A stretch of DNA of 64,000 nucleotides from Candidatus Aminicenantes bacterium (lineage in GTDB: Bacteria; Acidobacteriota; Aminicenantia; Aminicenantales; Aminicenantaceae): positions 14,727-78,726 of the forward strand of contig WVZK01000044.1 in the NCBI GenBank assembly GCA_011772475.1, given 5' to 3'. Made by a program: the position numbers and the translations under genes. Below the pieces are notes generated by a model. It saw nothing but the letters and a program-made list of their open reading frames with translations, was not told where the DNA came from and did no database searches. Below, one piece after another: positions 9,975 through 21,689 of the stretch (positions are counted from its first letter, which is position 1; every line of letters begins with the position of its first letter).

Positions 9975-10508
9975 ATGAAAATACTCAGAAATATAAATGT
10001 TCCTTTTTCTAGAAATCAAATTTTAGCCATTTTGGGGGGCATCCTCGTCGTTGTTGTGATTTTGATCTTCATTTTTGGAGCTGTTTGGGGAGGCGTTAAG
10101 CAGCCCATTTCTTTTAATCATAAAATTCATGCGGAGAATGATTTGGATTGCTTGGATTGTCATCCCTATTTTAATGAACATGCTTCATCAGGGAGACCGA
10201 GTCTAGAGACATGCATGAGCTGCCATGAGGAACCTCAAGGTGAAAGCTTGGCTGAAAAAAAGCTTTTAGAATATATAAAATCTGGGAATGAGATTGACTG
10301 GCAAAGACTTTATCGGGTTCCTGAAGATGTTTATTTTTCCCATAGGAGGCATGTAGTTTTAGGGCAAATTGATTGTATGACTTGTCATGGAAATATCGGC
10401 GAAAGTCCCAAGCCGCCTTCAGAGCCTTTAAAAATAACTATGAAGAAATGCATGAAATGTCATGAAGAAAAAGAGGCTAGTAACGATTGTATTGCCTGTC
10501 ATAGATAG
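9975..10508 (+). CDS. membrane-anchored pentaheme cytochrome c (ActA / c3-c7 family-like)
   Basis: 177 aa with an N-terminal TM helix (ILAILGGILVVVVILIFIFGAVWG). Five CXXCH motifs: CLDCH, CMSCH, CMTCH, CMKCH, CIACH. FNHKIH...CLDCH is a typical c7/ActA-type start. Confidence 0.8.
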   Translation: MKILRNINVPFSRNQILAILGGILVVVVILIFIFGAVWGGVKQPISFNHKIHAENDLDCLDCHPYFNEHASSGRPSLETCMSCHEEPQGESLAEKKLLEYIKSGNEIDWQRLYRVPEDVYFSHRRHVVLGQIDCMTCHGNIGESPKPPSEPLKITMKKCMKCHEEKEASNDCIACHR

Positions 10509-10556
10509 AAGTGATTTGAATATATTCTTACCGAAAACTCCAAAAAGGACGAATAA

Positions 10557-13016
10557 ATGGGCTTAAAAAGAAGAGATTTCCTTAAAATAATCGGAGGATC
10601 AGCTCTTAGCTTTTCTCTCTATGATTGTTCTACTAAGAATTATCTTTCTCCGATAAGAGAAAAGGAATGGAGCCCCAAGGTTGAAGAATGGATTCAATCT
10701 GTTTGTTTCGCTTGCCCTGGAGGCTGTGGGATATTGGGCAGAGTGGTTGATGGCAAGCTCGTAAAAATTGAAGGGAACCCCGCTCATCCTATTAATCGAG
10801 GGAAACTCTGTCCTGTAGGCCAGGCAAGCCTTCAGGTTCTTTACAGTCCTGATAGAATCAAAGGGCCTATGAAAAAAATCGGAGGAAAAGATTCTAGCAA
10901 ATGGCAGAGCATTAGTTGGGAAGAGGCTATGGAGACCTTGGTTTCAAAGCTCAAAGAATTAAGGAACGCTGGAGACTCTCATAAATTAGTTTTGTTGAAT
11001 GGGGGAAATAGAGGAATTCTCAGTGAAATTTTTGATAGATTCATGAAAGTTTTTGGCTCTCCCAATCATTTCCGCTATGATTTTTATAATAGTCTTACCC
11101 AGGCCTATTATCTTACTCAAGGGATTGATGAATTATTAGCTTATGATTTTGAAAACAGCAACTATATTCTTTCTTTTGGCAGCAGTTTCTTAACCTCTTG
11201 GCCCTCACCTGTTCAATCTATGAGAGCGTATGCTTTTTTAAGGCAGGGAAGGCCAGGGAAAAAAGCAAAGATCGCTCAGATCGAGCCTAGGTTTTCGATA
11301 GCTGCTTGTCGAGCGGATAAGTGGATCCCTATCGAACCCGGCACAGAGGGGCTGCTGGCATTAGGAATCGCCTATGTTCTCATCAAAGAAAGGCTCTACG
11401 ATAGAAATTTTATCGAGAAATTTACCTTTGGTTTTGAAGATTGGGAAGATGAAGATGGAAATAGCCATTACGGATACAAGAACTTAGTATCGGAAAGATA
11501 TCGATTAGATTTTGTTTCAGAAACCACTGGAGTTTCAGTTGATGATATTGTTACTCTTGCCAAAGATTTTGCTATGAATAAGCCTGCCATAGCCATTTTA
11601 GACCATAATGCCACTAATTATTCTAATGGATTGTATAATGCATTGGCCATTCATTCATTAAACGCTCTGATCGGAAGCATCGATGTGCCAGGAGGAGTTT
11701 TAGTTCAGAGAAAAGTGCCTCTTCAAGAATTACCCAAGATATCTGTAGATGAGGCTACAAAGATGAATCTTTCTCAGCCAGCAATTGATAGCCCTGAAGA
11801 AGGCCAATTCCCCCTGGCCACTTCGACTCCTTCCCTGATTCCAGAAAACATTCTTAAGGGAAAGCCATATCCTGTGAATTTAGCTTTCATCTGCAAAGCC
11901 AATCCCTTATTCTCATCCCCGAATTCAGAGAAATACCGAAAAGCCTTTGAGAAGATTCCTTTTATTGTAAGCTTTTCTTCTTTCATGGATGAGAGCACTC
12001 TGTATGCTGACCTTGTTCTTCCGGATAAAACCTATCTTGAAAAATGGCAGTATGCAGAAAGTTCCCCTGTTTCAAAAACTCCAGCCATTGGCATCGGGAA
12101 GCCCATTGTAGAGAATTTATTTAATGCGAAGCCTACCGAAGATGTTATTTTAGAGGCGGCTCAAAGGATGGGATCATCTTTTGCGAGTCATTTTCCTTGG
12201 AAAAATTCTAAGGATTTTCTCCTTTACAAGATTGATACTCTTTTTCGAGCTCGCAAAGGTATTATCTTCTCTGATCCTTTTGAAGAAACTCAGTTAAAGC
12301 TTTTGGAAGAGCGTGGTTGGTGGGTTCCTCAATTCACTTCAGCCAGCGAATTTAAGGCAGAATTAATGCAAAAAGGAGGATGGTGGGATCCGGCTTATAG
12401 CTTTGGCCAAAGGAGCTTTGTATTCAGGACTCCATCAAGAAAGTTTGAATTTTATTCTCAATTATTTGTAAAAAGGATTGAAAAAATTGCAGAACAAATA
12501 GGAGAGAATAGAGAGGATAAGAAGGATGTTATTTTTAATCAACTAAATTTTGAATCCAGAGGAGACGATTTTTTCATGGCTCATTATGAAAAGCCGCAAT
12601 TTGAGGGCGATAAGAAGGAATTTCCTCTGTATTTGTATATATATCAACCTTTTAGTTTAACCAATGAATATGAAGCTAACCAACCTTGGTTTCAGGAAAT
12701 TATGGGATTTCACCTTAACATGAACTGGGATTCATGGGCTGAGATTAATCCCCATACAGCTTCTGAATTAGGAATCGCAGATAATGATTTAATTTGGATT
12801 GAGTCTGTTCATGGAAAAGTTAGAGTTAAGGCAAAGATTTATTCCGGAGCCATGCCTGATGTGGTAAGTGTCCCTTTTGGATTGGGACATAGAGCTCTTG
12901 GCCAATGGGCCAAAAATAGAGGAATCAATCCTATTGATCTTATAGGAGCAAACTTTGATCAGCTGACGGGCTTAGCTATGAAATTATCAACGCGAGTAAA
13001 AATCTATAGAGCCTAG
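10557..13016 (+). CDS. Tat-exported molybdopterin-oxidoreductase-family large subunit (PsrA/ActB1/QrcB-like)
   Basis: 819 aa. Twin-arginine signal MGLKRRDFLKIIGGSALSF. N-terminal 4Fe-4S motif CFAC-PGG-C-x27-C. Whether it binds Mo/W cannot be decided by eye. Confidence 0.8.
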   Translation: MGLKRRDFLKIIGGSALSFSLYDCSTKNYLSPIREKEWSPKVEEWIQSVCFACPGGCGILGRVVDGKLVKIEGNPAHPINRGKLCPVGQASLQVLYSPDRIKGPMKKIGGKDSSKWQSISWEEAMETLVSKLKELRNAGDSHKLVLLNGGNRGILSEIFDRFMKVFGSPNHFRYDFYNSLTQAYYLTQGIDELLAYDFENSNYILSFGSSFLTSWPSPVQSMRAYAFLRQGRPGKKAKIAQIEPRFSIAACRADKWIPIEPGTEGLLALGIAYVLIKERLYDRNFIEKFTFGFEDWEDEDGNSHYGYKNLVSERYRLDFVSETTGVSVDDIVTLAKDFAMNKPAIAILDHNATNYSNGLYNALAIHSLNALIGSIDVPGGVLVQRKVPLQELPKISVDEATKMNLSQPAIDSPEEGQFPLATSTPSLIPENILKGKPYPVNLAFICKANPLFSSPNSEKYRKAFEKIPFIVSFSSFMDESTLYADLVLPDKTYLEKWQYAESSPVSKTPAIGIGKPIVENLFNAKPTEDVILEAAQRMGSSFASHFPWKNSKDFLLYKIDTLFRARKGIIFSDPFEETQLKLLEERGWWVPQFTSASEFKAELMQKGGWWDPAYSFGQRSFVFRTPSRKFEFYSQLFVKRIEKIAEQIGENREDKKDVIFNQLNFESRGDDFFMAHYEKPQFEGDKKEFPLYLYIYQPFSLTNEYEANQPWFQEIMGFHLNMNWDSWAEINPHTASELGIADNDLIWIESVHGKVRVKAKIYSGAMPDVVSVPFGLGHRALGQWAKNRGINPIDLIGANFDQLTGLAMKLSTRVKIYRA

Positions 13017-13030
13017 AAAAGGAGAAAGAA

Positions 13031-13723
13031 ATGCCTCGATGGGGAATGGTTATTGATTTAGATAGGTGTACTGCATGTCAAGCGTGCGTTGTGGCATGTA
13101 AAGCTGAGAATAATATTCCCTTTTCTTCACCCAAAGAAGCTGGAAGAAGAAGAATTATCTCCTGGATGCGTGTATTACCAATGATGGAGGGAGAATATCC
13201 TAACCTTAGAGAAAGGTTTATTCCCAGGCCATGTATGCATTGCGATAATCCTCCTTGCGTAAAAGTCTGTCCCGTTGGTGCTACTTATAAGAATAAAGAA
13301 GGATTAATTGCCCAAGTCTATACCCAATGTATAGGCTGTCGCTATTGTACCAATAACTGTCCTTATACTCTAAAGTACTTTAATTGGTTTAGACCCGAAT
13401 GGCCGGAGGAAATGGAAAATTATCTAAACCCAGATGTCTCGATTCGAAGCAAGGGTGTGGTCGAGAAATGCACTTTCTGTCATCATCGCCTCCAAAAAGC
13501 CAGAGAAAAAGCTCGGGCAGAAAACAGAGAGCTTAAGGAAGAAGATTATATCCCTGCTTGTGTTCAGACATGTCCCACTGATGCCATCTATTTTGGAGAT
13601 TTGGATGATTCTAAAAGCAAAGTGGCCCAGTTGGCAAGAAGTCCTCGAGCCTTTCGTCTTTTAGAAGAATTAGGAACAGAACCCAAGGTCTACTATCTCT
13701 CTGAAGGAGAATGGCATGGATAA
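13031..13723 (+). CDS. four-cluster 4Fe-4S ferredoxin subunit (PsrB/NrfC/ActB2/QrcC-like)
   Basis: 230 aa. Cys groups are CTACQACVVAC, CMHCDNPPCVKVC, CIGCRYCTNNC and CTFCHHR...CVQTC. It has no signal peptide, consistent with hitch-hiking on the Tat subunit. Confidence 0.88.
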   Translation: MPRWGMVIDLDRCTACQACVVACKAENNIPFSSPKEAGRRRIISWMRVLPMMEGEYPNLRERFIPRPCMHCDNPPCVKVCPVGATYKNKEGLIAQVYTQCIGCRYCTNNCPYTLKYFNWFRPEWPEEMENYLNPDVSIRSKGVVEKCTFCHHRLQKAREKARAENRELKEEDYIPACVQTCPTDAIYFGDLDDSKSKVAQLARSPRAFRLLEELGTEPKVYYLSEGEWHG

Positions 13724-15086
13724 AGATACATTAGATGAGCATTTTGTTGATGAGGTTGCGCATGAAGATGCTCCCATTCTCAAGCCTATCCTCTACACGA
13801 GCAAGAGATTTTATACAGTCGTTTTTATTCTTGTGGTCATTATCCTAATTGGCGTTCTCGCTTGGATATTCCAGCTTAGAAAGGGACTGGGAATCACAGG
13901 ACTAAATCAGCCAATATTTTGGGGATTTTACATAACTAACTTTGTCTTTTTTATCGGAATTAGCCATGCTGGGACATTGATTTCGGCTATTCTTCGTTTG
14001 GCTCGAGCGGAATGGAGAAGAGCCATCACTCGCTCAGCTGAAGTTATAACAGTTCTAGTCCTCTTTTTTGGGGTTTTCAACATCATTACTGATTTGGGTC
14101 AGCCTGGTCGGATGTTTAAAGTCTTTACCGATGGCAAGCTGAGTTCTCCGTTGCTTTGGGATGTTTTAAGTATATCGCTTTATTTAGCAGCGAGCGCCAT
14201 CTATCTTTATTTGCCTCTTATTCCAGACATTGCCTTGATGAGAGATAAATTTAAAAGTAAAACTAAAAGACTTTTTTACAGGATACTGGCTTTAAACTGG
14301 AAAGGAACAGAAAAACAATGGGCGATACTGGAAAAAGCCATTTCTATAATGGCCGTGGTCGTTATCCCTGTTGCAGTTTCCGTTCATACGGTTGTTTCTT
14401 ATGTTTTTGCCATGACCATTCAGCCTATGTGGCACAGCACAATTTTTGGCCCCTATTTCGTCACCGGAGCAATTTTCTCTGGCATTGCTGCCTTGATCAT
14501 TGCCATGTATTTTATCCGGCGAAGCTATCATCTTGAAGATTATTTAAAGCCTATTCATTTTAACAATTTAGGTTTATTGCTTCTGGTAATGAGTCTCTTG
14601 TGGTTTTATTTCACTTTTACCGAGAATCTGACAGCTTTTTATGGGGCCGAGCCTGCTCATCTGACCGTTTTTTGGAGCAAATTCATTGGAGGATATGCCC
14701 CATATTTTTGGACTATGGTGGGAAGCTGTTTTGTCATTCCTCTCGTTATTTTATCTAACAGAAGAACAAGGACTGTAACAGGCACGACGATAGCTTCGGT
14801 ATCAGTAATTATAGGGATGTGGCTGGAGAGATTCACGATAGTTTTGCCAACTTTAATAAATCCCAGACTCCCTTATGAAAAAGGAATGTACCATCCGACA
14901 TGGATCGAATTTGCTGTTACTGCAGGATGCTTTGCTACCTTTATTTTACTCTATGTATTATTTACAAAATTTTTCCCTATAGTTTCTATATGGGAAGTGA
15001 AAGAAGGCAAAGAGATAGGCGTGAAAGAGACTGAGGAACGCATTAAAAGTTATCTTCCTGGGAAAGAAAAAGAAAATTTGAAATGA
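13716..15086 (+). CDS. NrfD/PsrC/ActC-family integral membrane quinone-interacting subunit
   Basis: 456 aa and polytopic (about 10 predicted helices). The start overlaps the FeS gene by 8 nt. IFWGFYITNFVFFIGISHAGTLISAILRL is typical of the NrfD family. Confidence 0.85.
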   Translation: MDKDTLDEHFVDEVAHEDAPILKPILYTSKRFYTVVFILVVIILIGVLAWIFQLRKGLGITGLNQPIFWGFYITNFVFFIGISHAGTLISAILRLARAEWRRAITRSAEVITVLVLFFGVFNIITDLGQPGRMFKVFTDGKLSSPLLWDVLSISLYLAASAIYLYLPLIPDIALMRDKFKSKTKRLFYRILALNWKGTEKQWAILEKAISIMAVVVIPVAVSVHTVVSYVFAMTIQPMWHSTIFGPYFVTGAIFSGIAALIIAMYFIRRSYHLEDYLKPIHFNNLGLLLLVMSLLWFYFTFTENLTAFYGAEPAHLTVFWSKFIGGYAPYFWTMVGSCFVIPLVILSNRRTRTVTGTTIASVSVIIGMWLERFTIVLPTLINPRLPYEKGMYHPTWIEFAVTAGCFATFILLYVLFTKFFPIVSIWEVKEGKEIGVKETEERIKSYLPGKEKENLK

Positions 15087-15125
15087 AATATTAATATTTG
15101 CATCTAGAAGAAGAAGGAAAGAGAG

Positions 15126-16709
15126 ATGAATGAATCGATTAAAAAAACGAAAAATATTTATTTTATCTTAGGCATAATTTTCACTACTGGCGTTTTGATT
15201 TCCTTGTTCGCTGCTGAAGAAAATAAGAGCTTTACTTTTCCAGAAGATCCTTTGAAAGGAAGTAAGCTTTTTGTCAGCAAAGGTTGTATAAAATGCCATT
15301 CTATATGGGGAATCGGAGATACTCTTGGTCCTGATCTTGCCGACATGAGTAGAGAACAAAATCTTCTCCAGTTAGCTGGATTACTGTGGAGCCACTCTCC
15401 TAAAATGATAGAAATCATGCATGAGAGAGGAGTTTCTCGTCCCCTCTTTACTCCTCAAGAAATGGGCGATTTAATGGGCTATATTTATTATTTCAATTAT
15501 TTTGGTCGACCCGGTAATTTTATAGAAGGGGAAAAGCTGTTTCAGGAAAAGGGTTGTACAAGCTGCCATTCAGTAGGCGAGAATGGAGGCAAAACTAAGA
15601 TTTCCTTGGATGATTATGGGAAGTACATTTCTCCTTCGTTTTTAGTGACTGGTCTTTGGAATCATAGCCCTGAGATACTTTCTGAAATAAGAAGATTAGG
15701 TATAGAACAACCTGAATTCCATGGTCAGGAATTGGCTCATCTGCTGGCTTATATGCGAGGCGCAGCTCTAAATGAGGATGGAGACATCACCTATGCAGAA
15801 CCAGGAAGCCCGAAAAGAGGAAAAGATATCTTCATACAAAAAAAATGCAATGTGTGCCATGCTGTTTTCGGCGAAGGAGGAAGACGAGGGTCTGATTTGG
15901 GAAAAAGAGAGCTGCGGCTGACTCTCACTGAGATTTCAGGAAAAATATGGAGCCATTCTGGTCAAATGTGGCAGGAAATGAAGAGGATTGGCATTCCTTT
16001 TCCGATTTTTTCGCCTAAAGAAATGGCCGACCTCATTTCTTTTCTCTACTTCATTCAGTTTTATGAGGAGAAGGGAGATCCAGTAGAGGGAAAAAAACTT
16101 TTTAGAGAGAAAGTTTGTATTTTTTGTCATGCCCTAGAGGGGGAAGGAGAAAACGTTGGCCCTGATCTTACCAAGAGCGAGGCCCATTTTTCGCCAATTT
16201 TTTTGGCCTCTTCAATGTGGAATCATGCGATCGTAATGGAAGATATGCTGGCCGAGAAAGATCTGGGATGGCCACGCTTTTCTGGAAACGAGATGCGGGA
16301 TCTTGTTAGCTATGTTCAAGAAGCTTCCGAAAGATCTAAGGAAGAACGAATGAAAAGGCCTATCGTTCCTTCAAAACCAAAAGTTCTTTTTCTTTCTGAA
16401 AATAGGTTTGACCTTGAACTTGCCAGGAGCGGAAAAAAGATTTATATAGCGAAGGCATGTAATGCTTGCCACAACATCACTGGGAAAAAGCGTGCCATGG
16501 GTGGAGACCTCAAAGACATCACTAAAATAAGAGATTTGCAATGGCTTTTTAATTTTATTAAAAACCCAAAATCGATGCTTAAAACAGATGATCTAGCAAA
16601 GCAACTTCTTCAAGAATTCAACAATATCCCCATGCCACAACAGGGTTTGACCGATGAAGAAGTCATTGCCATTATCGAATATTTAAAGTCTCCTGAAAAA
16701 ATAGAATAG
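15126..16709 (+). CDS. membrane-anchored cytochrome c with five tandem class-I monoheme domains
   Basis: 527 aa with an N-terminal TM helix. There are five repeats of the G-x-x-[LI]F-x-x-K-x-C-x-x-CH pattern: CIKCH, CTSCH, CNVCH, CIFCH, CNACH. Confidence 0.8.
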   Translation: MNESIKKTKNIYFILGIIFTTGVLISLFAAEENKSFTFPEDPLKGSKLFVSKGCIKCHSIWGIGDTLGPDLADMSREQNLLQLAGLLWSHSPKMIEIMHERGVSRPLFTPQEMGDLMGYIYYFNYFGRPGNFIEGEKLFQEKGCTSCHSVGENGGKTKISLDDYGKYISPSFLVTGLWNHSPEILSEIRRLGIEQPEFHGQELAHLLAYMRGAALNEDGDITYAEPGSPKRGKDIFIQKKCNVCHAVFGEGGRRGSDLGKRELRLTLTEISGKIWSHSGQMWQEMKRIGIPFPIFSPKEMADLISFLYFIQFYEEKGDPVEGKKLFREKVCIFCHALEGEGENVGPDLTKSEAHFSPIFLASSMWNHAIVMEDMLAEKDLGWPRFSGNEMRDLVSYVQEASERSKEERMKRPIVPSKPKVLFLSENRFDLELARSGKKIYIAKACNACHNITGKKRAMGGDLKDITKIRDLQWLFNFIKNPKSMLKTDDLAKQLLQEFNNIPMPQQGLTDEEVIAIIEYLKSPEKIE

Positions 16710-16743
16710 ATTCTTGAATTGAAAGAAAACTACGGGCATAAAA

Positions 16744-18672
16744 ATGAAGTATAAAGTGTGGGTGCCAGATTTATTATGGTATAGAACAAATATTTTATGT
16801 ATGGAAGCCTGCCCTGTTCATACTGATTCTGGAAGATATGTTCAACTCATCGGGATAGGAGAAGATCAAGAGGCCTATTTAGTCGCACGGTCCTCCAACC
16901 CTTTTGCCTCTGTTTGTGGTCGGATATGCGCTGCTCCTTGTGAAGACGCCTGCCGAAGAGGAAAAATCAATGAATCTATTACAATTAGGTCTTTGAAAAA
17001 ATTTGTTACGGAAAAATATGGTGTTGAATCTAAGATAGCCCATACTCAAGAGCTGCTTACAGAAGGAAAGAAAATTCCACAAGGATCTGTGTGGCCTCTC
17101 CATGTGTCTTCTGTGATTAAGAGAGAAACATCTAAGACAAGGAAAAAAGTCGCTGTCGTCGGAGGAGGGCCTTCGGGATTAGCTTGTGCCCATGATTTGG
17201 CCTTGAGAGGCTATCAAGTAACCATATTTGAAGCCTCTAATATGCTGGGCGGAATGCCGAGAACAGCTATTCCAGAGTACAGATTGCCAAAAGATATTTT
17301 GAGAAAAGAGGCAGAATTTGTGCTTTCTTTAGGAGTTGAAGTCAGATTTAATACGCCTCTCAGTGAAAATTTCGGCCTTGATGAATTGAAGAAGCTGGGT
17401 TTCGAAGCATTTTATATTTCTGTGGGAGCCCAGCAGAGTCGAGAACCTAATATTGAAGGCACAGAGTTGGAAGGTGTTTTTAATGCCACTGATTACCTTT
17501 TGAATATAAACCAAGGTTATAAAATAGAATTAGGAAGAAGGACGGTTATCATCGGAGGAGGTCTAGTGGCTCTAGATTCGGCTCGAACCGCGTTGAGAGA
17601 AGTTCTGGCTCACCTTTCTGATTCGGAAGAAGCAAAGCTAGCTATCGATATATCTGCAGAGGCTGGAATGATGATGACTGCGATTGATGTTGCTCGAACA
17701 GCCTTGAGAAGAGGAACACTTAAGGTTGATGTGGCTAGCCTTGAGTCATTTGAAGAGATGCCGGCTACCCAAAGCACTCAAGGAAAAGAAGAATTTGAAG
17801 AATCTGTTAGAGAAGGAATTACTTTCCATCCCTCCCGAGGTCCAAAGCGAATTATTGGCGAGGGCGGACAAGTCAAAGCTGTTGAGTTTCTCAAAGTCAA
17901 AAGAGTTTTTGATGAGAAAGGGCGATTTAATCCTGAGCTTGAGCCGAAAACAGAAGAGATCATTGAAGCCGATTCTGTAATCCTGGCTATAGGTCAAAGG
18001 CCTGATCTTACATTTATTAGACCAAAAGATGGGGTAGAAATAACGCCCCAGGGGACGATCAAGGTGGATCCTCATACTCTGGCCACGACTCGAGAAGAGG
18101 TATTTGCAGGAGGAGATGCAGCTTTTGGGGCGAGAATCCTTATCGAGGGAGTGGCTAATGGGAAAGTGGCTGCCCACTCAATTGACAATTATTTGCGTAA
18201 AAAGAGAGGCACAGAGAAAATGTGTTCTGTCTCTATAAAGGTTCTATCACACCAAGATTATAAGAAGCCTGAAGAATATGAGATTAGGGAGAGAAAGACA
18301 CCTGATAAAATTTCTCTGGAACACCGAACAGGAGCAAATGAAGTGGAACTCTCTTTTGAAGAAAAAGAAGCTCGATCACAGGCACAGCGCTGTTTGATTT
18401 GCCATATTAACACTATTTATGACTCTGAGCTATGTATTCTTTGCGGCGCCTGTGTTGATCACTGTCCAAACAACTGCTTAAAGCTTGTTCCCTTCTCTGA
18501 GATTGAACTTGAACAAAGAGAAATCATAGAAAAGAAAATAAAAAATAAGAAAAGAAAATCATTAACGGCAATGATCAAAGATGAGATAGTTTGTATACGC
18601 TGCGGCATTTGTGCCGACGTATGTCCTACTAGAGCCATGACCATGGAAAGATTTTCTTTTAGGGAGATGTAG
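16744..18672 (+). CDS. GltD-like NAD(P)H-dependent FAD oxidoreductase with N-terminal FeS Cys motifs and a C-terminal 2x[4Fe-4S] ferredoxin domain
   Basis: 642 aa. CMEACPVH...NPFASVCGRICAAPCEDACRRG is the glutamate-synthase small-subunit type. Dinucleotide folds are KKVAVVGGGPSGLACAHDLALRG and RTVIIGGGLVALDSA. C-terminus carries CLICH...CILCGACVDHCP and CIRCGICADVCP. Confidence 0.82.
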   Translation: MKYKVWVPDLLWYRTNILCMEACPVHTDSGRYVQLIGIGEDQEAYLVARSSNPFASVCGRICAAPCEDACRRGKINESITIRSLKKFVTEKYGVESKIAHTQELLTEGKKIPQGSVWPLHVSSVIKRETSKTRKKVAVVGGGPSGLACAHDLALRGYQVTIFEASNMLGGMPRTAIPEYRLPKDILRKEAEFVLSLGVEVRFNTPLSENFGLDELKKLGFEAFYISVGAQQSREPNIEGTELEGVFNATDYLLNINQGYKIELGRRTVIIGGGLVALDSARTALREVLAHLSDSEEAKLAIDISAEAGMMMTAIDVARTALRRGTLKVDVASLESFEEMPATQSTQGKEEFEESVREGITFHPSRGPKRIIGEGGQVKAVEFLKVKRVFDEKGRFNPELEPKTEEIIEADSVILAIGQRPDLTFIRPKDGVEITPQGTIKVDPHTLATTREEVFAGGDAAFGARILIEGVANGKVAAHSIDNYLRKKRGTEKMCSVSIKVLSHQDYKKPEEYEIRERKTPDKISLEHRTGANEVELSFEEKEARSQAQRCLICHINTIYDSELCILCGACVDHCPNNCLKLVPFSEIELEQREIIEKKIKNKKRKSLTAMIKDEIVCIRCGICADVCPTRAMTMERFSFREM

Positions 18673-18677
18673 TTTCA

Positions 18678-19142
18678 GTGAAAGAAAATGAAAGAAAAAT
18701 AACTAGAAGATTCTTTTTTGGAGTCTTAGGCAAAACATCAATTATCGTGGCTTTACTGGCAGAAGCAATAGGAGCAATTAAAGCTTTTATTCCTAAGGTC
18801 CTCTATGAACCGCCTTCTAAATTTAAAATTGGCAAACCAGAAGACATCCCAGAAGGAATAACTTTTCTTCCACAACATAGATTATACATTTTTAGAAATA
18901 ATGATGACTTTCATGCAATTTCAGCTGTGTGCACTCATCTGAAATGCATCGTCGATTGGAAACCAGATCAAAGGGAATTTTACTGCCCCTGTCATGGAAG
19001 TATATTTTCTCAAGCTGGGATTAATCTAACAGGACCTGCTCCAAAGCCTCTTCCATGGTATCCTTTATCCCTTGCTCCTGATGGTAACTTGGTTATAGAT
19101 TCAAGCAAACAAGTCAAGCCAGATTATAAGTATTCCCTTTAA
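18678..19142 (+). CDS. Rieske [2Fe-2S] protein
   Basis: 154 aa, GTG start. Tat-like anchor TRRFFFGVLGKTSIIVALLA. Rieske boxes CTHLKC and CPCHGS. Confidence 0.9.
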   Translation: MKENERKITRRFFFGVLGKTSIIVALLAEAIGAIKAFIPKVLYEPPSKFKIGKPEDIPEGITFLPQHRLYIFRNNDDFHAISAVCTHLKCIVDWKPDQREFYCPCHGSIFSQAGINLTGPAPKPLPWYPLSLAPDGNLVIDSSKQVKPDYKYSL

Positions 19143-19154
19143 AGAGAGATATAT

Positions 19155-20456
19155 ATGAAAGAAAAGTTGACTAATATATGGAGGAAATTAACCTGGTCTT
19201 GGTCTCCACGATCAGAACGGGAGGCGAGCGAATCTGTCATCAAAAATTTCTGGTTACACTGGTTCCCATCGCGGATATCTCTCCGGAGTTTAGGCTGGAG
19301 TTATTCTCTTTGGTTGGGAACAATTGCTGCCTGCCTGTTTATCATCTTGGCAATCACTGGACTTTTGCTTCTTTATTTCTATATTCCTTCCGTCCGGAGC
19401 GCTTATTGGAGCATAAAGGACTTAGAAAATGTTGTTGTTTTTGGCTCGCTTCTCCGAGCTCAACATCGGTGGGCTGCTGAGTTAATGGTTGCAGTTGTTT
19501 TCATTCATCTGATGAGGGTCTTTTTTACTGCCTCATATCGTGACCAGAGAGTATGGAATTGGTATATTGGAATTGGTCTCTTGGTCATAACGCTTTTTCT
19601 TTCCTTTACCGGCTATATTCTTCCCTGGGATCAGCTCGCTTATTGGGCCTTGACTATAGGGATGAGTATTGCCAGCGAAATTCCTTTTCTTGGCAAGAGT
19701 ATCAGTTTTCTTTTGGCCGGAGGAAATGTATTAGGACAAAATAGCCTCCTCCGTTTTTTTGTTCTTCATAATTTTTTTCTTCCCGCTATGCTTCTCTTTC
19801 TGTTTGCTCTTCATATGTGGAGAATTAGAAAAGATGGAGGGCTAACTTCTATGGACAGGTTGATACGAGAAACGCAATTAAAAGAAACTCCTGTCAGTCC
19901 TACCAAGTCATATTCCTTGCTGGGGGTTACCGAAGGAACAACCATTCAGGTCACAACAACACAAGTGCTTGATGAAAGAAATTCCGTGAGGAGCTCTCCT
20001 CATTTACTCCGTAGAATTGCAGTTGTTTTTTTGATCACAACAATCTTCACTTTAGGACTTGCTCTTCTTTCTCCAGCACCATTGGAAGAGCCTGCTAACC
20101 CTTCTGTAACTCCAATTCCTGCCAAGGCTCCCTGGTATTTTCTCTGGCTTCAGGAATTGATTGCTATTACAACTATCAAAATCGGGAAGATAACAATAAG
20201 CGGTGGCCTGATCGGAGGAATTCTAGTTCCAGGCTTTCTTTTTCTTTTAGCTATTCTCTGGCCTTTTTTGGATAGAAGCCCCAAAGAAGCCATTGGAGTC
20301 TGGTTTCATAAAAAAAGAAGAATTCAAAACAGTGTTTTCATTTTAATCTGCGTGGTGATTATAGTTCTTATCATAATTGGCCTTTATTTAAGAGGACCAT
20401 ACTGGAAATTTTTCTGGCCATGGCAGCCTTGGCCTGAAATTCCGGCTCAATTCTAG
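19155..20456 (+). CDS. cytochrome b (fused b6 + subunit-IV-like, extended C-terminus)
   Basis: 433 aa and polytopic. RAQHRWAAELMVAVVFIHLMRVFF and FTGYILPWDQLAYWALTIG are cytochrome b/b6 signatures. Confidence 0.88.
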   Translation: MKEKLTNIWRKLTWSWSPRSEREASESVIKNFWLHWFPSRISLRSLGWSYSLWLGTIAACLFIILAITGLLLLYFYIPSVRSAYWSIKDLENVVVFGSLLRAQHRWAAELMVAVVFIHLMRVFFTASYRDQRVWNWYIGIGLLVITLFLSFTGYILPWDQLAYWALTIGMSIASEIPFLGKSISFLLAGGNVLGQNSLLRFFVLHNFFLPAMLLFLFALHMWRIRKDGGLTSMDRLIRETQLKETPVSPTKSYSLLGVTEGTTIQVTTTQVLDERNSVRSSPHLLRRIAVVFLITTIFTLGLALLSPAPLEEPANPSVTPIPAKAPWYFLWLQELIAITTIKIGKITISGGLIGGILVPGFLFLLAILWPFLDRSPKEAIGVWFHKKRRIQNSVFILICVVIIVLIIIGLYLRGPYWKFFWPWQPWPEIPAQF

Positions 20457-20468
20457 GAGATCAAAGTT

Positions 20469-21689
20469 TTGAACAATAAAAAGAATTTCAATCCTGACAA
20501 AGATTTTTACTGGCTGGCTTTCTTTTCTTTCCTTCTATTCGTAGTGGTGATCATAGCTTTCTACAGGGAGGCAAATCCTGAATGGAAGAAATATCAGCGA
20601 GAATTCAAAAATTATCTCGAAGAAAACATAAGCCCAGAGTCAGCTTCTGCCTTTGAGTTTTCTGTAAAACAGCTCTGGCTTCCGGAGCTTAATAAGGTCG
20701 ATCGCTGCATCAGTTGTCATTTAGGATATGACCAACCTAATCTGACTGAAGCGCCGGAGCCTTATGCAGCCCACCCTGATATTTTGCCTCATTCTGTGTT
20801 GAAAATGGGATGCACTATTTGTCATGGAGGACAGGGTTTTGCACTCAAGAAAAAAGATGCTCATGGAGAAGTAGAACACTGGGAAGAGCCTATGTTGGGA
20901 GCGAAGCTGGCCAAAAAATATGGTTTTGAGTCTGAGAAAATATTGATGCAGATGAATTGTAACACTTGTCATCGCCGTGATGAGGATTTGACTGGAATGG
21001 AAATGATAAATCTTGGCAAGAACCTCTTGACTCAGAAGAAAAAATGTCAAACCTGCCATATCATAGATGGAAAAGGTGGAAAATTGGCAGCTGACCTAAC
21101 ATTTATCGGAGATAAACCGGCGGAGAGATTCGATTTTTCTCAAATTAAAGATAAACTTATCGAAAGCGAAAGACCTCTCTCCGTGTTGAGCTGGCATTTT
21201 GAACACTTTATGAATCCCAAGGCTGTTGTCCCTGATAGTAAAATGCCCTATGTCAAATATACAGAAGAGGAGGCATGGGCTTTAGCAATGTTAATGATGA
21301 GCTGGAGAAGTGTCAGCCTGCCCGTTATGCTCATACCCGAAGAAAAAAGGGAGGAAGTGCCACCTCCTGAAAAAAAGCTCGAGAAAAGGAAACTATCCAT
21401 TGTTGAATGGGGAAAAGAGCTCTTTGAAAGTAAGGGCTGTTCTGAGTGTCATACTATTGGAGGGGGAGTAGAGGTTGGTCCTGATCTAATAGGTATAACG
21501 AAATTGAGAGACATACAATGGTTGAGAAAAATGATTCTTGACCCTGAGAAAATGGAACAAACTGATCCACTAGCCAAAAAATTGTATCAAGAATATGAAG
21601 AAACTGGAATGCCTACAGAAGAATTAACCCTGCAAGAAGTCGAAGCGATCATTAAATATATTGAGTCCTTTAATAAGGAAAGTAATTAG
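20469..21689 (+). CDS. membrane-anchored pentaheme cytochrome c of the Rieske/cyt b complex
   Basis: 406 aa, TTG start 8 nt after AGGAGA, with an N-terminal TM helix. Motifs are CISCH, CTICH, CNTCH, CQTCH, CSECH. The last class-I domain is clearly paralogous to the last domain of the 15126..16709 protein (KLRDIQWL / KIRDLQWL, EAIIKYIES / IAIIEYLKS). Confidence 0.8.
   Translation: MNNKKNFNPDKDFYWLAFFSFLLFVVVIIAFYREANPEWKKYQREFKNYLEENISPESASAFEFSVKQLWLPELNKVDRCISCHLGYDQPNLTEAPEPYAAHPDILPHSVLKMGCTICHGGQGFALKKKDAHGEVEHWEEPMLGAKLAKKYGFESEKILMQMNCNTCHRRDEDLTGMEMINLGKNLLTQKKKCQTCHIIDGKGGKLAADLTFIGDKPAERFDFSQIKDKLIESERPLSVLSWHFEHFMNPKAVVPDSKMPYVKYTEEEAWALAMLMMSWRSVSLPVMLIPEEKREEVPPPEKKLEKRKLSIVEWGKELFESKGCSECHTIGGGVEVGPDLIGITKLRDIQWLRKMILDPEKMEQTDPLAKKLYQEYEETGMPTEELTLQEVEAIIKYIESFNKESN

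What the first reader, a model, noticed from the sequence alone, without database searches (positions are those of the whole stretch)
9975..21689. Single 9-gene operon fusing an ACIII/Qrc-like quinone module with a Rieske/cytochrome b complex and an NAD(P)H-type flavoprotein
Nine same-strand genes are separated by -8 to 48 nt: 10508/10557, 13016/13031, an overlap at 13716, 15086/15126, 16709/16744, 18672/18678, 19142/19155, 20456/20469. In order they encode a pentaheme ActA-like cytochrome, a Tat-exported molybdopterin-family subunit, a 4-cluster FeS subunit, an NrfD-type membrane subunit and a five-domain monoheme cytochrome c. These are followed by a GltD-like NAD(P)H/FAD/FeS protein, a Rieske protein, cytochrome b and a pentaheme cytochrome c. 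ACIII/Qrc-type complexes and Rieske/cyt b complexes are normally alternative, separately encoded quinol:acceptor oxidoreductases. Here two distinct quinone-interacting membrane modules (NrfD-type and cyt b) appear co-transcribed with 15 soluble-side c hemes and a cytoplasmic pyridine-nucleotide module. The last class-I heme domains of the 15126 and 20469 proteins are recognisable paralogs (KIRDLQWL / KLRDIQWL; IAIIEYLKS / EAIIKYIES), which suggests a shared docking partner. A supercomplex coupling quinol oxidation or quinone reduction to NAD(P)+/NAD(P)H is a plausible but unproven reading. That could be reverse electron flow, or bifurcation as proposed from memory for the unusual anammox Rieske/cyt b complexes.
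Basis: partly seen in the sequence, partly recalled or inferred. Interest (0 to 1): 0.85.

Follow-up and report, generated by a model that had tools for sequence, protein, structure and literature searches.

The report
Two linked respiratory modules in Aminicenantes
Nine tightly packed genes in an uncultured Aminicenantes bacterium join two separable quinone-linked respiratory modules: a Psr/Qrc/ACIII-like cytochrome–FeS–NrfD unit and a Rieske/cytochrome b complex with a cytoplasmic NADP(H) flavoprotein. The second module usually sits beside nitrous-oxide reductase genes in other bacteria and resembles the unusual anammox complexes.

Summary
The window comes from a Candidatus Aminicenantes MAG.

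The cluster consists of two cassettes that also occur apart:
- **g6–g9** (NfnB/GltD-like flavoprotein, Rieske, fused b6-type cytochrome b, pentaheme c) keeps the same order in about 80 species of at least nine phyla. In 51 of 63 informative loci, clade II nosZ follows it directly. The nearest solved relatives of its Rieske are the two Kuenenia Rieske/cytochrome b (R/b) proteins.
- **g1–g5** also stands alone elsewhere. Its NrfD and FeS subunits are ACIII-like and its α subunit is Arr/Psr-like. The α subunit keeps FS0 but lacks the Cys Mo ligand.

Linkage of the two cassettes is confined to Aminicenantia:
- Five loci share the window's order.
- Two loci have the modules swapped.
- One locus (L092) pairs the g1–g5-type module with Moco-biosynthesis genes and a canonical b6f-type Rieske/cytochrome b set lacking the flavoprotein.

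In loci with the window's order, g5 carries an extra copy of g9's exit heme domain.

Functional coupling through the menaquinone pool or a shared periplasmic partner is plausible. A supercomplex, bifurcation to NADP+ and the Mo status of g2 are untested. Verdict: a new variant of known kinds, of moderately high interest.

The parts
9786..9815 (+). Best sigma-70-like promoter match, in the 403-nt gap upstream of g1. This is a candidate operon promoter on weak evidence.
   Evidence: TTGACA-18-TAGAAT, 11 of 12 matches. Promoter-like sites overall are not above the shuffled expectation (37 found against 31.2 +/- 5.8).
9975..10508 (+). g1: membrane-anchored pentaheme c7/c3-type cytochrome (177 aa), resembling QrcA and ActA.
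   Evidence: It has 5 CXXCH and one N-terminal TM helix. Pfam Cytochrome_C7 scores 1.4e-13. The NCBIfam QrcA match is full-length at 110 bits, below the 180-bit cutoff.
10557..13016 (+). g2: Tat-exported molybdopterin-family α subunit (819 aa). FS0 cysteines are retained and the canonical Cys Mo ligand is absent.
   Evidence: The Tat motif is RRDFLK. C50, C53, C57 and C85 are invariant in the family. Best PDB matches are ArrA (5e-88, or 9e-141 with a profile) and PsrA; ActB matches only at 1e-11 to 2e-19, mostly over the N-terminal part. The ArrA Cys aligns to Asn178 or to an insert.
13031..13723 (+). g3: periplasmic FeS subunit with four cluster-binding motifs (230 aa).
   Evidence: It has 16 Cys in four cluster motifs. 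The best PDB match is the C-terminal FeS domain of ACIII ActB (6f0k_B, 3e-62), ahead of ArrB (7e-44) and PsrB. NCBIfam QrcC scores 326 bits, below the 400-bit cutoff.
13716..15086 (+). g4: NrfD-family quinone-interacting membrane subunit (456 aa, about 10 TM helices) of the ActC type.
   Evidence: PDB matches are ActC from 6f0k_C (3.6e-73), 6btm_C, 6lod_C and 8k9e_C, with no PsrC hit at E < 0.01. The QrcD HMM gives only 43 bits against a 570-bit cutoff.
15126..16709 (+). g5: anchored cytochrome c with five monoheme domains (527 aa). Domains 1-4 are of the 'WNH' type. Domain 5 (about nt 16383-16709) is a copy of the g9 exit domain.
   Evidence: It has 5 CXXCH and five PF00034 stretches. Domain 5 is 45% identical over 95 aa to the g9 tail. 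The extra domain is present only in loci with the window's gene order.
16744..18672 (+). g6: cytoplasmic NfnB/GltD-type FAD/NAD(P)H flavoprotein (642 aa) with N-terminal and C-terminal FeS domains and no TM helix.
   Evidence: Pfam finds Fer4_20, Pyr_redox_2 and Fer4 x2. Best PDB matches are 9bov/9bp5 (9e-81), NfnA, StnC and NfnB (1e-55), well ahead of GltD (1e-35).
18678..19142 (+). g7: Rieske [2Fe-2S] protein (154 aa) with an RR-containing N-terminal anchor.
   Evidence: The motifs are CTHLKC...CPCHGSIF. Best PDB matches are the Kuenenia Rieske proteins 9rk4 and 9rk3 (5e-24 and 5e-23), with the next hit at 1.7e-15. The redox-tuning Ser is present, as in all 82 family members that show the motif.
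19155..20456 (+). g8: long cytochrome b (433 aa), a b6-like four-helix part fused to a subunit-IV-like part.
   Evidence: Best PDB match is cytochrome b6 (1e-38), ahead of bc1 cytochrome b. It hits the NCBIfam ExtP and ExtQ models. H104, H118, H205, H220 and also H35 are invariant in 46 of 46 sequences. CxGG is replaced by [W/Y]LGT, and KAPWYF is invariant.
20469..21689 (+). g9: anchored pentaheme cytochrome c (406 aa). The fifth, exit domain (about nt 21366-21689) is of the 'RDxxWL...GMP...AIIKYIES' type.
   Evidence: All five CXXCH are invariant in 60 homologues. The exit domain differs from the 'IGPDLS...PTGTM' type carried by every nos-linked homologue listed.
21890..23116 (+). g10: outer-membrane porin with an N-terminal heme-binding (DHC-like) domain. 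It follows a 200-nt gap and is possibly associated with the cluster.
   Evidence: Pfam finds Porin_O_P, Porin_4 and DHC, with one CXXCH. The same gene follows g9 in L082 and L084. A promoter-like site lies at 21817-21845.

Best explanation
The nine genes are two autonomous respiratory cassettes that one bacterial class, Aminicenantia, keeps side by side. In this genome they very probably form one transcription unit.

**Module A (g1-g5)** is a periplasm-facing complex anchored by an NrfD subunit. It combines a pentaheme cytochrome, an Arr/Psr-like α subunit that keeps the FS0 cluster but lacks the Cys Mo ligand, an ActB-like four-cluster FeS subunit, an ActC-like quinone subunit and a multi-domain cytochrome c. 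It sits evolutionarily between Psr/Arr-type molybdoenzymes and Qrc/ACIII.

**Module B (g6-g9)** is a Rieske/cytochrome b complex with a fused b6-type cytochrome b, no heme cn and a pentaheme cytochrome c. A cytoplasmic NfnB-like NADP(H)/FAD/FeS subunit docks on its n-side. It is the same cassette that precedes clade II nosZ in most other lineages, and it is the counterpart of the anammox Kuste4569-73 and Kustd1480-85 complexes.

**Inferred mechanism (not shown)**
1. Module A exchanges electrons between periplasmic c-type hemes, or a substrate at the α subunit, and menaquinone.
2. Module B oxidises menaquinol at the Qp site.
3. One electron goes to the Rieske cluster, which carries the tuning Ser of the high-potential type, then to the g9 hemes, and then to the multiheme and porin-cytochrome network encoded around the cluster.
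4. The other electron crosses the membrane via the two b hemes and a putative extra heme held by the invariant His35. It then passes along the FeS chain of g6 to FAD and NADP+.
5. The reverse direction, with NADPH as donor, is not excluded.

The two modules would communicate through the menaquinone pool and through a common periplasmic partner recognised by the duplicated exit domain of g5 and g9. They need not form a fixed supercomplex.
For: **Identity of the parts:**

**Separability of the modules**
- g6-g9 occurs without g1-g5 in about 75 species-level loci. In 51 of 63 informative loci nosZ-nosB-nosDFYL follows directly.
- g1-g5-like modules occur without any Rieske/cytochrome b in L089, L090 and L091.

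**Linkage within Aminicenantia**
- The window's order recurs in L082, L084, L085 and L088, where g2 is only 62% identical.
- The order is swapped in L002 and L086.
- The module sits upstream of a different, canonical b6f-type R/b set in L092.
- In an NJ tree the linked flavoproteins form one clade nested among nos-linked ones.

**Co-adaptation**
- g5 has an extra domain paralogous to the g9 exit domain only in loci with the window's order.
- The g9 exit domain differs from the nos-linked type.

**Electron path**
- Five histidines are invariant in 46 cytochromes b, including His35. His35 has no equivalent in two flavoprotein-less cytochromes b.
- This fits the extra b heme predicted for the anammox complexes (PMC12954380).
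- The Rieske tuning Ser is present in 82 of 82 family members showing the motif.

**Context and transcription**
- The cluster lies in a multiheme and porin-cytochrome island with no nosZ and no heme-copper oxidase among the ORFs scanned.
- Spacers are at most 48 nt and there is no junction terminator.
Against: - No expression, complex or activity data exist for this organism.
- The direction of electron flow in both modules is inferred.
- The g5 class-I-type domains would suit an ACIII-like (quinol-oxidising) direction for module A. That would make the two modules parallel rather than sequential.
- The window shows no obvious high-potential terminal acceptor that could pay for NADP+ reduction.
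- The equivalence of g8 His35 with Kuste4571 His43 was not aligned directly. The Arg spacing test was inconclusive.
- The Mo status of g2 is unresolved, and the evidence conflicts.
- In relatives the modules are separated by 253 nt or by a regulator gene. Co-transcription is therefore not a conserved property.
- The tree has no support values.
Confidence: 0.5

Rival explanations
1. The nine products would assemble into one physical supercomplex, in which ACIII/Qrc-type and Rieske/cytochrome b modules jointly couple quinol oxidation or quinone reduction to NAD(P)+/NAD(P)H by bifurcation or reverse electron flow.
For: - Adjacency is conserved through rearrangement and through replacement of the R/b type.
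- The exit domain is duplicated in g5 and g9.
- Qrc and ACIII are both reported to form supercomplexes with partners (PMC13059093 text; the title of the ACIII-oxidase structure paper cited).
- The anammox counterparts co-migrate as complexes, and bifurcation to NAD(P)+ is proposed for them.
Against: - Each module functions without the other in many genomes.
- Gene order is not fixed, and a regulator gene or a 253-nt spacer intervenes in relatives.
- L002 keeps the linkage without the duplicated domain.
- L092 links the module to an R/b set that has no flavoprotein. The NAD(P) link is therefore not what the association depends on.
- Nothing tested here bears on physical contact.
Confidence: 0.15
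2. Module A would be a genuine periplasmic molybdoenzyme, a reductase or oxidase of unknown substrate related to Arr, Psr and Ttr. The Rieske/cytochrome b cassette would be its dedicated quinol:cytochrome c feeder or outlet. This would parallel the cassette's position next to NosZ in other phyla.
For: - g2 aligns with ArrA over its full length (9e-141 with a profile). It keeps invariant FS0 cysteines, a Tat signal and strong conservation in all domains.
- NarJ/TorD-type chaperone genes occur in the related modules of L089, L090 and L092.
- In L092 the module is preceded by mobA-like, moaA, moeA and MOSC genes, with a 4-nt overlap into g1.
- Rieske/cytochrome b genes embedded in terminal-reductase clusters are a known theme: nosZ here, and Nap/εHao in Caldithrix (PMC5317091).
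Against: - The Cys ligand is absent and that loop is not conserved. The neighbouring D/E position is Asn in exactly the subclade linked to the flavoprotein cassette.
- The window has no chaperone or Moco gene.
- The FeS and NrfD subunits are closest to ACIII, whose α-like domain has no cofactor.
- A module with its own quinone subunit does not obviously need a bc-type feeder.
Confidence: 0.25
3. The two modules would be independent, parallel menaquinol:cytochrome c oxidoreductases tuned to different acceptor potentials. They would be neighbours only because the region is a respiratory island for extracellular electron transfer, with no specific coupling.
For: - The window holds at least five putative quinone-interacting modules within 35 kb: g4, g8, a second cytochrome b at 38710-39834, a NapC/NirT-type protein at 40218-42209 and a second NrfD at 43986-45179. 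It also holds porin-cytochrome genes.
- ActC-like and ActB-like similarity and class-I-type heme domains favour the quinol-oxidising direction for module A.
Against: - The linkage persists at 5-48 nt spacing across lineages in which g2 has diverged to 55-62% identity. It also survives a swap of order and a swap of R/b type.
- The duplicated exit domain is specific to linked loci.
- Other island genes are not conserved around the cluster in L088 or L092.
Confidence: 0.15

Closest known systems
Anammox NAD(P)-oxidoreductase-containing Rieske/cytochrome b complexes (Kuenenia stuttgartiensis Kuste4569-4573/4 and Kustd1480-1485; cytochrome b 'subfamily G' of Dibrova et al.)
   Same: - The operon combines a Rieske protein, a b6-like cytochrome b with a subunit-IV-like part, a multiheme cytochrome c in place of cytochrome f or c1, and a cytoplasmic NAD(P)/FAD/FeS subunit.
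- The best solved relatives of g7 are the two Kuenenia Rieske proteins.
- g7 carries the Ser/Phe pair of Kustd1480.
- g6's top PDB hit is the 9bov/9bp5 sequence, and 9bp5 is the entry reported as the closest structural homologue of Kuste4570.
- The invariant N-terminal His fits the predicted extra b heme.
   Different: - Cytochrome b and subunit IV are fused here.
- The heme-cn CxGG motif is absent ([W/Y]LGT).
- The cytochrome c has five hemes rather than six or eight.
- There is no HAO-like partner.
- The host is not an anammox bacterium.
- The gene order starts with the flavoprotein.
- The cassette is joined to an NrfD-type module.
Rieske/cytochrome b genes of clade II nos (N2O reductase) clusters. 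That such genes occur there is recalled from the nos literature (from memory: Sanford et al. 2012; Hein and Simon). No held paper describing them could be read.
   Same: g6-g7-g8-g9 homologues at 46-58% identity for g6, in the same order and orientation, precede nosZ-nosB-nosDFYL in 51 of 63 informative species loci across many phyla. All five hemes of g9 and all five histidines of g8 are conserved.
   Different: The window has no nosZ in 64 kb. The g9 exit heme domain is of a different type. The cassette is attached to module A and to a multiheme-cytochrome island instead.
QrcABCD (cytochrome c3:menaquinone oxidoreductase of sulfate reducers)
   Same: The gene order is the same: cytochrome c, Mo-family α subunit, FeS subunit, NrfD. 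The complex faces the periplasm with a Tat signal on the α subunit. QrcA-, QrcB- and QrcC-model matches are the best or near-best NCBIfam hits. The Cys Mo ligand is missing.
   Different: - All four proteins score below the equivalog cutoffs, and QrcD gives only 43 of 570 bits.
- There are five hemes rather than six.
- The α subunit keeps the FS0 cysteines, whereas QrcB has no cofactor.
- The NrfD subunit is ActC-like.
- There is an extra multi-domain cytochrome c (g5).
Alternative complex III (ActABCDEF)
   Same: The pentaheme anchored cytochrome resembles ActA. The FeS subunit is most similar to the C-terminal half of ActB, and the NrfD subunit is strongly similar to ActC (3.6e-73). Class-I-type heme domains are analogous to ActE.
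   Different: - The α-like and FeS parts are separate genes.
- The α part resembles ArrA and PsrA far more than ActB, and it keeps FS0.
- There is no ActD and no second NrfD (ActF).
- The ActE analogue has five heme domains.
Arr/Psr/Phs-type complex iron-sulfur molybdoenzymes
   Same: The α subunit aligns over its full length with ArrA. It has a Tat signal and FS0. The architecture is α-β-NrfD. Chaperone and Moco genes occur in relatives.
   Different: There is no Cys, Sec, Ser or Asp conserved at the ligand position. Scores fall far below the family cutoffs (ArrA 326 of 1600 bits; PhsA 318 of 694 bits). The membrane subunit is ActC-like with about 10 helices. Two c-type cytochromes are added.

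Membership tests
QrcABCD | All four subunits reach the NCBIfam equivalog cutoffs. | tested here: not met
   One search gives QrcA 110 of 180 bits, QrcB 320 of 440, QrcC 326 of 400 and QrcD 43 of 570.
QrcABCD | QrcA is a hexaheme cytochrome c (PMC8076601, Table 1). | tested here: not met
   g1 has 5 CXXCH.
QrcABCD | QrcB carries no redox cofactor (PMC13059093). | tested here: not met
   The FS0 cysteines C50, C53, C57 and C85 are invariant across the g2 family. Cofactor content itself cannot be tested with these tools.
QrcABCD | The complex has cytochrome c3:menaquinone oxidoreductase activity and is electrogenic. | not testable with these tools
   This needs biochemistry.
Alternative complex III | An ActC-type NrfD subunit is present. 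| tested here: met
   g4 matches 6f0k_C (3.6e-73), 6btm_C (1.8e-67), 6lod_C and 8k9e_C.
Alternative complex III | ActB is a single polypeptide: a cofactor-less Mo-like domain fused to an FeS domain. | tested here: not met
   g2 and g3 are separate genes. g2 resembles ArrA and PsrA far more than ActB and keeps the FS0 ligands.
Alternative complex III | ActD and a second NrfD-like subunit, ActF, are present. | tested here: not met
   No such genes lie between 9975 and 21689. g4 is the only NrfD in the cluster.
Alternative complex III | A pentaheme ActA and a monoheme ActE are present. | tested here: inconclusive
   g1 has 5 hemes and an N-terminal anchor, consistent with ActA. The ActE role would fall to a five-domain protein, g5.
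Arr/Psr-type molybdoenzyme | A Cys (or Sec, Ser or Asp) side chain ligates Mo. | tested here: not met
   The ArrA Cys (chain position 153) aligns to g2 Asn178 or to an insert. The column is Y/D/N/W/G/P in the clade.
Arr/Psr-type molybdoenzyme | A Tat signal and an FS0 [4Fe-4S] motif are present. | tested here: met
   The Tat motif is RRDFLK, and the FS0 motif C-x2-C-x3-C-x27-C is present.
Arr/Psr-type molybdoenzyme | The α subunit contains the Mo-bisPGD cofactor. | not testable with these tools
   Indirect evidence for: Moco genes and chaperones in relatives. Indirect evidence against: none of these genes is in the window.
NAD(P)-linked Rieske/cytochrome b complex (anammox type, subfamily G) | The Rieske subunit is of that lineage. 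| tested here: met
   9rk4 and 9rk3 score 5e-24 and 5e-23, and the next hit scores 1.7e-15.
NAD(P)-linked Rieske/cytochrome b complex (anammox type, subfamily G) | An NAD(P)/FAD/FeS oxidoreductase is encoded within the R/b operon. | tested here: met
   g6 lies 5 nt upstream of g7. Its nearest solved relative, 9bov/9bp5, includes the entry reported for Kuste4570.
NAD(P)-linked Rieske/cytochrome b complex (anammox type, subfamily G) | A short b6-type cytochrome b with the heme-cn CxGG motif, plus a separate subunit IV. | tested here: not met
   g8 is a fused 433-aa protein. The motif is WLGT here and [W/Y]LGT in 46 of 46 sequences.
NAD(P)-linked Rieske/cytochrome b complex (anammox type, subfamily G) | An N-terminal His provides the ligand of an additional b heme at the dimer interface. 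This is predicted, not shown, in PMC12954380. | tested here: inconclusive
   His35 is invariant in 46 of 46 sequences and is absent from two flavoprotein-less cytochromes b. No direct alignment with Kuste4571 or Kustd1481 was possible.
Clade II nos-associated Rieske/cytochrome b cassette | The cassette is adjacent to nosZ and the nos accessory genes. | tested here: not met
   There is no nosZ-like sequence in the window or in any Aminicenantes locus.
Clade II nos-associated Rieske/cytochrome b cassette | The same four genes occur in the same order, with conserved cofactor ligands. | tested here: met
   The exit domain of g9, however, is of another type.

The most novel reading that the evidence does not exclude
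In Aminicenantia, an NrfD-type module that still resembles a molybdoenzyme and a Rieske/cytochrome b complex would form an obligate functional pair, a menaquinone loop between two periplasmic heme pools. In the window's lineage the pair would have been upgraded in two ways. It gained an NfnB-like subunit, so that quinol-based bifurcation delivers one electron to NADP+ and the other to an extracellular-electron-transfer network. It also gained a duplicated exit domain, so that both modules dock the same partner. By extension, the NADP-linked cassette would be the standard electron-delivery machine of most clade II N2O reducers. It would use the very high potential of N2O to regenerate NADPH, as a kind of super Q-cycle.
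Probability: 0.15. Interest if true: 0.85.

Novelty: new variant of a known kind. Interest (0 to 1): 0.6.

Why it matters
The NAD(P)-linked Rieske/cytochrome b complexes are an open problem in bioenergetics. They have been discussed almost only for anammox bacteria, which cannot be manipulated genetically.

This work adds three points:
- The same cassette is widespread, including in cultivable genera such as Anaeromyxobacter and a MAG assigned to Ignavibacterium album, and it usually sits next to nosZ.
- Its cytochrome b has a fifth invariant histidine, which fits the extra heme predicted for the anammox enzymes.
- Its exit domain changes with genomic context.

Together these make the proposed bifurcation to NAD(P)+ testable outside anammox.

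Module A looks like an evolutionary intermediate between Psr/Arr molybdoenzymes and the cofactor-less Qrc and ACIII. That bears on how those complexes arose. The recurrent pairing of the two module types in one class suggests a designed quinone loop for organisms whose electron donors and acceptors are both outside the cytoplasm.

Tried and rejected
- **Anammox origin of the window:** rejected. Source records name the proteins as Candidatus Aminicenantes, and no anammox genes were seen.
- **Nine-gene order as a common operon:** rejected. In 80 species-level loci it appears only in the close relative L002, and there with the modules swapped.
- **'g2 is simply Mo-less like QrcB':** I first favoured this from the missing Cys and from the chaperone in Cys-containing L089. 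I withdrew it as a firm claim after finding Cys-less L090 with a chaperone and L092 with co-operonic Moco genes.
- **Arg at +204 from His35:** tested as a second marker of the extra-heme site. It is not conserved, so the result is inconclusive.
- **Literature searches:** searches for the flavoprotein in nos clusters and for respiratory clusters in Aminicenantes gave nothing specific. Sanford et al. 2012 is not held.
- **My simple ORF caller:** it produced antisense shadow ORFs in high-GC loci (cluster 7). Counts were therefore redone with tblastn.
- **First Rieske motif count:** a faulty filter made it wrong. It was redone.
- **tblastn HSPs of g9:** these were truncated before the exit domain. 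The analysis was redone on full ORFs.
- **Promoter and terminator scans:** not informative beyond chance.
- **Structure prediction and fold search:** not used. Monomer models cannot show cofactor occupancy or inter-subunit contacts.

Full report
**1. Observation**

The spacers are 48, 14, -8, 39, 34, 5, 12 and 12 nt. g1, g5 and g9 each have five CXXCH motifs. g2 starts with a Tat motif (RRDFLK) and a C-x2-C-x3-C-x27-C FS0 motif. g7 has both Rieske boxes.

Pfam and NCBIfam confirm each domain assignment. Hydropathy gives single N-terminal anchors for g1, g5 and g9, about ten helices for g4, seven for g8, and none for g2, g3 or g6.

Promoter-like and terminator-like matches are no more frequent than in shuffles. 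The best + strand promoter-like sites lie before g1 and before the next gene, and no terminator-like site falls in an internal junction. In this genome one transcription unit is therefore the simplest reading, though it is not shown.

The DNA matches NCBI contig JABAOF010006213.1 of GCA_012974965.1 at 99.7-100% identity in every aligned segment, apart from three stretches that read as runs of N in the stored copy. Its proteins are named 'MAG: Candidatus Aminicenantes bacterium'. This is not an anammox organism.

**2. Module B (g6-g9) is a widespread, portable cassette**

A scan of one genome per species with a g6 profile returned 80 loci. tblastn with all nine proteins shows g6-g7-g8-g9 in the same order and orientation in essentially every locus long enough to judge. 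By record title these include Acidobacteriota classes, Ignavibacteria, Bacteroidota, Calditrichaceae, KSB1, Gemmatimonadota, Anaeromyxobacter, Binatia, Acidimicrobiia, Planctomycetales and Kryptoniota.

In L087 the cassette is followed by nosZ (nos_propeller plus cupredoxin), nosD, nosF and nosL. A systematic tblastn finds nosZ directly after the g9 homologue in 51 of 63 species loci that extend beyond g9. The window has no nosZ-like sequence.

The nearest solved relatives of the g7 Rieske protein are the two Kuenenia stuttgartiensis R/b Rieske proteins. 9rk4 and 9rk3 score 5e-24 and 5e-23, and the next hit scores 1.7e-15.

The nearest solved relatives of g6 are NfnB-type NADPH/FAD subunits of bifurcating enzymes. 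9bov/9bp5 scores 9e-81, followed by NfnA, StnC, NfnI and NfnB. Glutamate synthase small chains score only 1e-35. Hauser et al. 2025 report 9bp5 as the closest structural homologue of Kuste4570 (PMC12954380).

g8 is b6-like. The composition matches what that paper and Kartal et al. describe for Kuste4569-73 and Kustd1480-85: a Rieske protein, a b6-like cytochrome b plus subunit IV, a multiheme c and an NAD(P) oxidoreductase. Dibrova et al. 2017 had already noted that subfamily G cytochromes b co-occur with NAD(P)-binding FeS oxidoreductases 'in many other cases'. They also noted a clade G' of long cytochromes b in 'large conserved operons... of an unknown function' (PMC5600118).

**3. New details on module B**

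- **Invariant histidines.** Across 46 cassette cytochromes b from many phyla, five histidines are invariant. Four are the canonical b-heme ligands. The fifth is His35 in the N-terminal n-side segment.
- **Specificity of His35.** Two related cytochromes b that lack a flavoprotein partner have no His at the equivalent position, 18 residues before the CxGG position. These are L092 and the window's second cytochrome b. This fits the extra interfacial b heme that AlphaFold3 predicted for the anammox complexes, bound by His43 or His62. I could not align those proteins directly, and the Arg spacing test was inconclusive.
- **No heme cn.** The heme-cn Cys is absent in all 46 sequences ([W/Y]LGT), and KAPWYF is invariant.
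- **Rieske tuning residues.** The Ser that raises the Rieske potential is present in all 82 family members that show the motif. The next tuning position is Phe or Tyr in equal numbers. g7 has Ser/Phe like Kustd1480, which was measured at +335 mV.
- **Two exit-domain types.** All five hemes of g9 are invariant in 60 homologues, but the fifth domain comes in two types. Every nos-linked protein listed carries an '...IGPDLS...PTGTM...' domain. The Aminicenantes proteins and one Binatia protein carry a 'GPDL...RDxxWL...GMP...AIIKYIES' domain. The exit domain therefore tracks genomic context. That is expected if it selects the electron-transfer partner.

**4. Module A (g1-g5)**

| Subunit | Nearest solved relatives |
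|---|---|
| g4 (NrfD) | ACIII ActC, 6f0k_C 3.6e-73; no PsrC hit |
| g3 (FeS) | FeS half of ActB 3e-62; then ArrB 7e-44; then PsrB |
| g2 (α) | ArrA 5e-88 (profile 9e-141, full length); PsrA; ActB only 1e-11 to 2e-19 |

NCBIfam Qrc models are among the best hits for g1 to g3, but all fall below their cutoffs. QrcD scores only 43 of 570 bits.

The FS0 cysteines are invariant in the g2 family. This differs from QrcB, which has no cofactors (PMC13059093), and from ActB (PMC8076601 Table 1).

The ArrA Mo-ligand Cys aligns to Asn178 or to an insert. That loop is variable in the Aminicenantes/Acidobacteria clade, while some distant members have a Cys there.

The five-gene arrangement recurs on its own in L089, L090 and L091, usually among multiheme cytochromes. 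It runs c7-like cytochrome, α, FeS, NrfD, sometimes a NarJ/TorD-type chaperone, then a multi-domain cytochrome c.

The Mo status is unresolved. Three observations suggest loss of Mo:
- The Cys is missing.
- The window has no chaperone or Moco genes.
- The neighbouring D/E position is Asn in the window's subclade.

Four observations suggest that at least some members are true molybdoenzymes:
- FS0 is retained.
- The similarity to ArrA is full-length.
- Chaperone genes occur next to Cys-less members (L090, L092).
- In L092 a mobA-like gene, moaA, moeA and MOSC precede the module, with MOSC overlapping g1 by 4 nt.

If that is right, a missing ligand is not proof of loss.

**5. The linkage**

- The window's order g1-g9 recurs in L082, L084 and L085. 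L085 is a second contig of the same assembly whose flavoprotein, P0011, is 83% identical to g6.
- It also recurs in L088, where g2 is only 62% identical.
- L002 and L086 have g6-g9 first and g1-g5 after. In L086 a cNMP-binding gene lies between the modules.
- The g5-g6 spacer is 34 nt here, 3 nt in L084, 26 nt in L088 and 253 nt in L082.
- In an NJ tree of the flavoprotein the linked sequences form one clade nested among nos-linked ones. The tree is midpoint-rooted with no support values.
- L092, a more divergent Aminicenantia, has the module at 49-79% identity. It is followed in the same orientation by a different, canonical b6f-type set with no flavoprotein. That set comprises a Rieske protein without the tuning Ser, a short cytochrome b6 with CxGG, a separate subunit IV with PEWY, and a nonaheme c.
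- Fragments of the association also appear elsewhere in Acidobacteriota. In L068 the cassette is followed by a chaperone and a g5-like cytochrome. In L056 g5-like and g1-like matches lie on the opposite strand about 8 kb upstream of a nos-linked cassette.

The pairing of this NrfD-type module with a Rieske/cytochrome b complex has therefore survived a swap of order and a swap of R/b type. This is better evidence for a functional relationship than frozen synteny would be. It does not depend on the flavoprotein.

**6. Co-adaptation**

g5 and g9 align at E = 8e-23, and their last domains are 45% identical over 95 residues.

Stand-alone g5-like proteins (L089, L090, L091, L068, L092) and the g5-like protein of swapped-order L002 contain only four or five 'WNH'-type domains. 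The extra g9-type terminal domain is found only in loci with the window's order: the window, L082, L084, L085 and L088.

It also shows that the duplication is not needed for the linkage itself.

**7. Context**

From about 10 to 52 kb the window is a multiheme-cytochrome island. It contains:
- a porin with a heme domain (g10, also downstream in L082 and L084);
- MtrC-like, c554-like and c7-repeat cytochromes;
- a second cytochrome b with a multiheme partner;
- a NapC/NirT-type multiheme protein;
- a second cytochrome c-FeS-NrfD trio;
- system II cytochrome c biogenesis genes;
- a heptaheme, β-barrel and multiheme trio typical of porin-cytochrome conduits;
- a sigma-54 two-component pair.

No terminal oxidase or nosZ was found among the ORFs of at least 150 aa that were scanned.

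**8. How it most likely works (inference)**

Module B oxidises menaquinol at Qp. One electron goes to the Rieske cluster, which has the tuning Ser of the high-potential type, then through the five g9 hemes to a periplasmic partner. The other electron crosses via bL and bH and a putative His35-bound heme into the g6 FeS chain, and on to FAD and NADP+. This follows the Kartal/Hauser proposal.

I hold this direction at roughly 55:45 over the reverse, with NADPH as donor. The reverse would suit organotrophs, and Hauser et al. rejected it only for Kuenenia.

Module A exchanges electrons between periplasmic hemes, or a substrate at g2, and menaquinone. If it runs in the Qrc direction (quinone reduction), the two modules form a complete menaquinone loop between a low-potential and a higher-potential periplasmic pool. 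That would make sense of co-expression. If it runs in the ACIII direction, the two are parallel outlets.

I rank the explanations as follows:

| Explanation | Confidence |
|---|---|
| Coupled but separable modules | 0.5 |
| Module A as a true molybdoenzyme served by the R/b complex | 0.25 |
| Fixed supercomplex | 0.15 |
| Mere co-location | 0.15 |

These overlap in part.

**9. Verdict**

Each half is a member of a known or recognisable kind.

What is new here:
- the recurrent pairing of the two modules in Aminicenantia;
- the intermediate Psr/Arr to Qrc/ACIII character of module A;
- the duplicated exit domain;
- as by-products, the scale of the nos linkage, the invariant fifth histidine and the two exit-domain types of the cassette.

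None of this has been tested experimentally.

Noticed in passing
L003-L087 (for example L087 10001-21860; L025; L042 Anaeromyxobacter sp. PSR-1): The flavoprotein-Rieske-cytochrome b-pentaheme cassette directly precedes clade II nosZ-nosB-nosDFYL in 51 of 63 informative species loci from many phyla. The first gene is always the NfnB/GltD-like NAD(P) flavoprotein. I found no mention of this flavoprotein in the nos literature held here.
   Followed up: partly
window 19257-19259 (g8 His35) and 46 homologues in L002-L087: A fifth histidine in the N-terminal n-side segment of cytochrome b is invariant in all 46 cassette sequences. It is absent from two flavoprotein-less cytochromes b. This fits the extra b heme predicted by AlphaFold3 for the anammox complexes.
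   Followed up: partly
window 21366-21689 (g9 domain 5), compared with L003-L087: The exit heme domain of the pentaheme cytochrome exists in two unrelated-looking types. One type is in every nos-linked cassette listed. The other is in Aminicenantes and in one Binatia locus (L063).
   Followed up: partly
L092 148-15899 (GCA_046760445.1, Ca. Aminicenantia): Sixteen co-oriented genes run in this order: NarJ-like chaperone, mobA-like, moaA, tauE, moeA, MOSC, a g1-g5-like module, then a canonical b6f-type Rieske, cytochrome b6 and subunit IV, a nonaheme c and a c554-like protein. Moco genes are fused to the module, and the R/b partner is of a different type.
   Followed up: yes
window 37441-45179: Three further putative quinone-interacting units lie back to back: a second fused cytochrome b (38710-39834, -) with a 421-aa multiheme partner (37441-38706, -); a 663-aa NapC/NirT-type multiheme protein (40218-42209, -); and a cytochrome c-FeS-NrfD trio (42430-45179, +).
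   Followed up: no
window 45303-52244: System II cytochrome c biogenesis genes (CcsA/ResB-like, 45303-47470, -) are followed by a heptaheme cytochrome (47491-48786), a 704-aa outer-membrane β-barrel (49140-51254) and a 326-aa multiheme cytochrome (51264-52244). The layout resembles a porin-cytochrome conduit.
   Followed up: no
window 21890-23116; L082 15120-16277; L084 15149-16378: A porin with an N-terminal heme-binding (DHC-like) domain follows g9 in three related loci, and a c554-like cytochrome lies on the opposite strand.
   Followed up: no
L085 (JABAOF010020301.1) compared with the window (JABAOF010006213.1): The same assembly, GCA_012974965.1, holds a second contig with the same gene order. 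Its flavoprotein, P0011, is 83% identical to g6. The MAG therefore either mixes two populations or carries two paralogous clusters.
   Followed up: no
L001 4137-4154, 8246-8247, 8864-8913, compared with window 10671-10742, 14834-14888, 15505-15656: The stored public copy has runs of N that are shorter than the real sequence (18, 2 and 50 N against 72, 55 and 152 nt). This truncates three gene calls there (801, 421 and 325 aa instead of 819, 456 and 527).
   Followed up: yes
window 18391-18477 (g6 residues 550-578): Besides the two ferredoxin-type motifs, C550, C553, H554 and C578 are invariant in 14 flavoproteins. This may be an additional cluster site at the start of the C-terminal domain.
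   Followed up: no
window 27627-30281 (-), compared with L082 17478-20124 and L084 17549-20228: An 884-aa protein with a weak FAD/NAD-binding signature is a single ORF in the window. In two relatives it appears as two adjacent genes (424 + 467 aa; 434 + 455 aa).
   Followed up: no
L089 1-4500 and 17752-20247: A stand-alone g1-g5-like module with a Cys-containing α subunit sits next to MtrB/PioB-like, OmcA/MtrC-like and FeoAB genes. This suggests an iron-related or extracellular-electron-transfer role for that relative.
   Followed up: no
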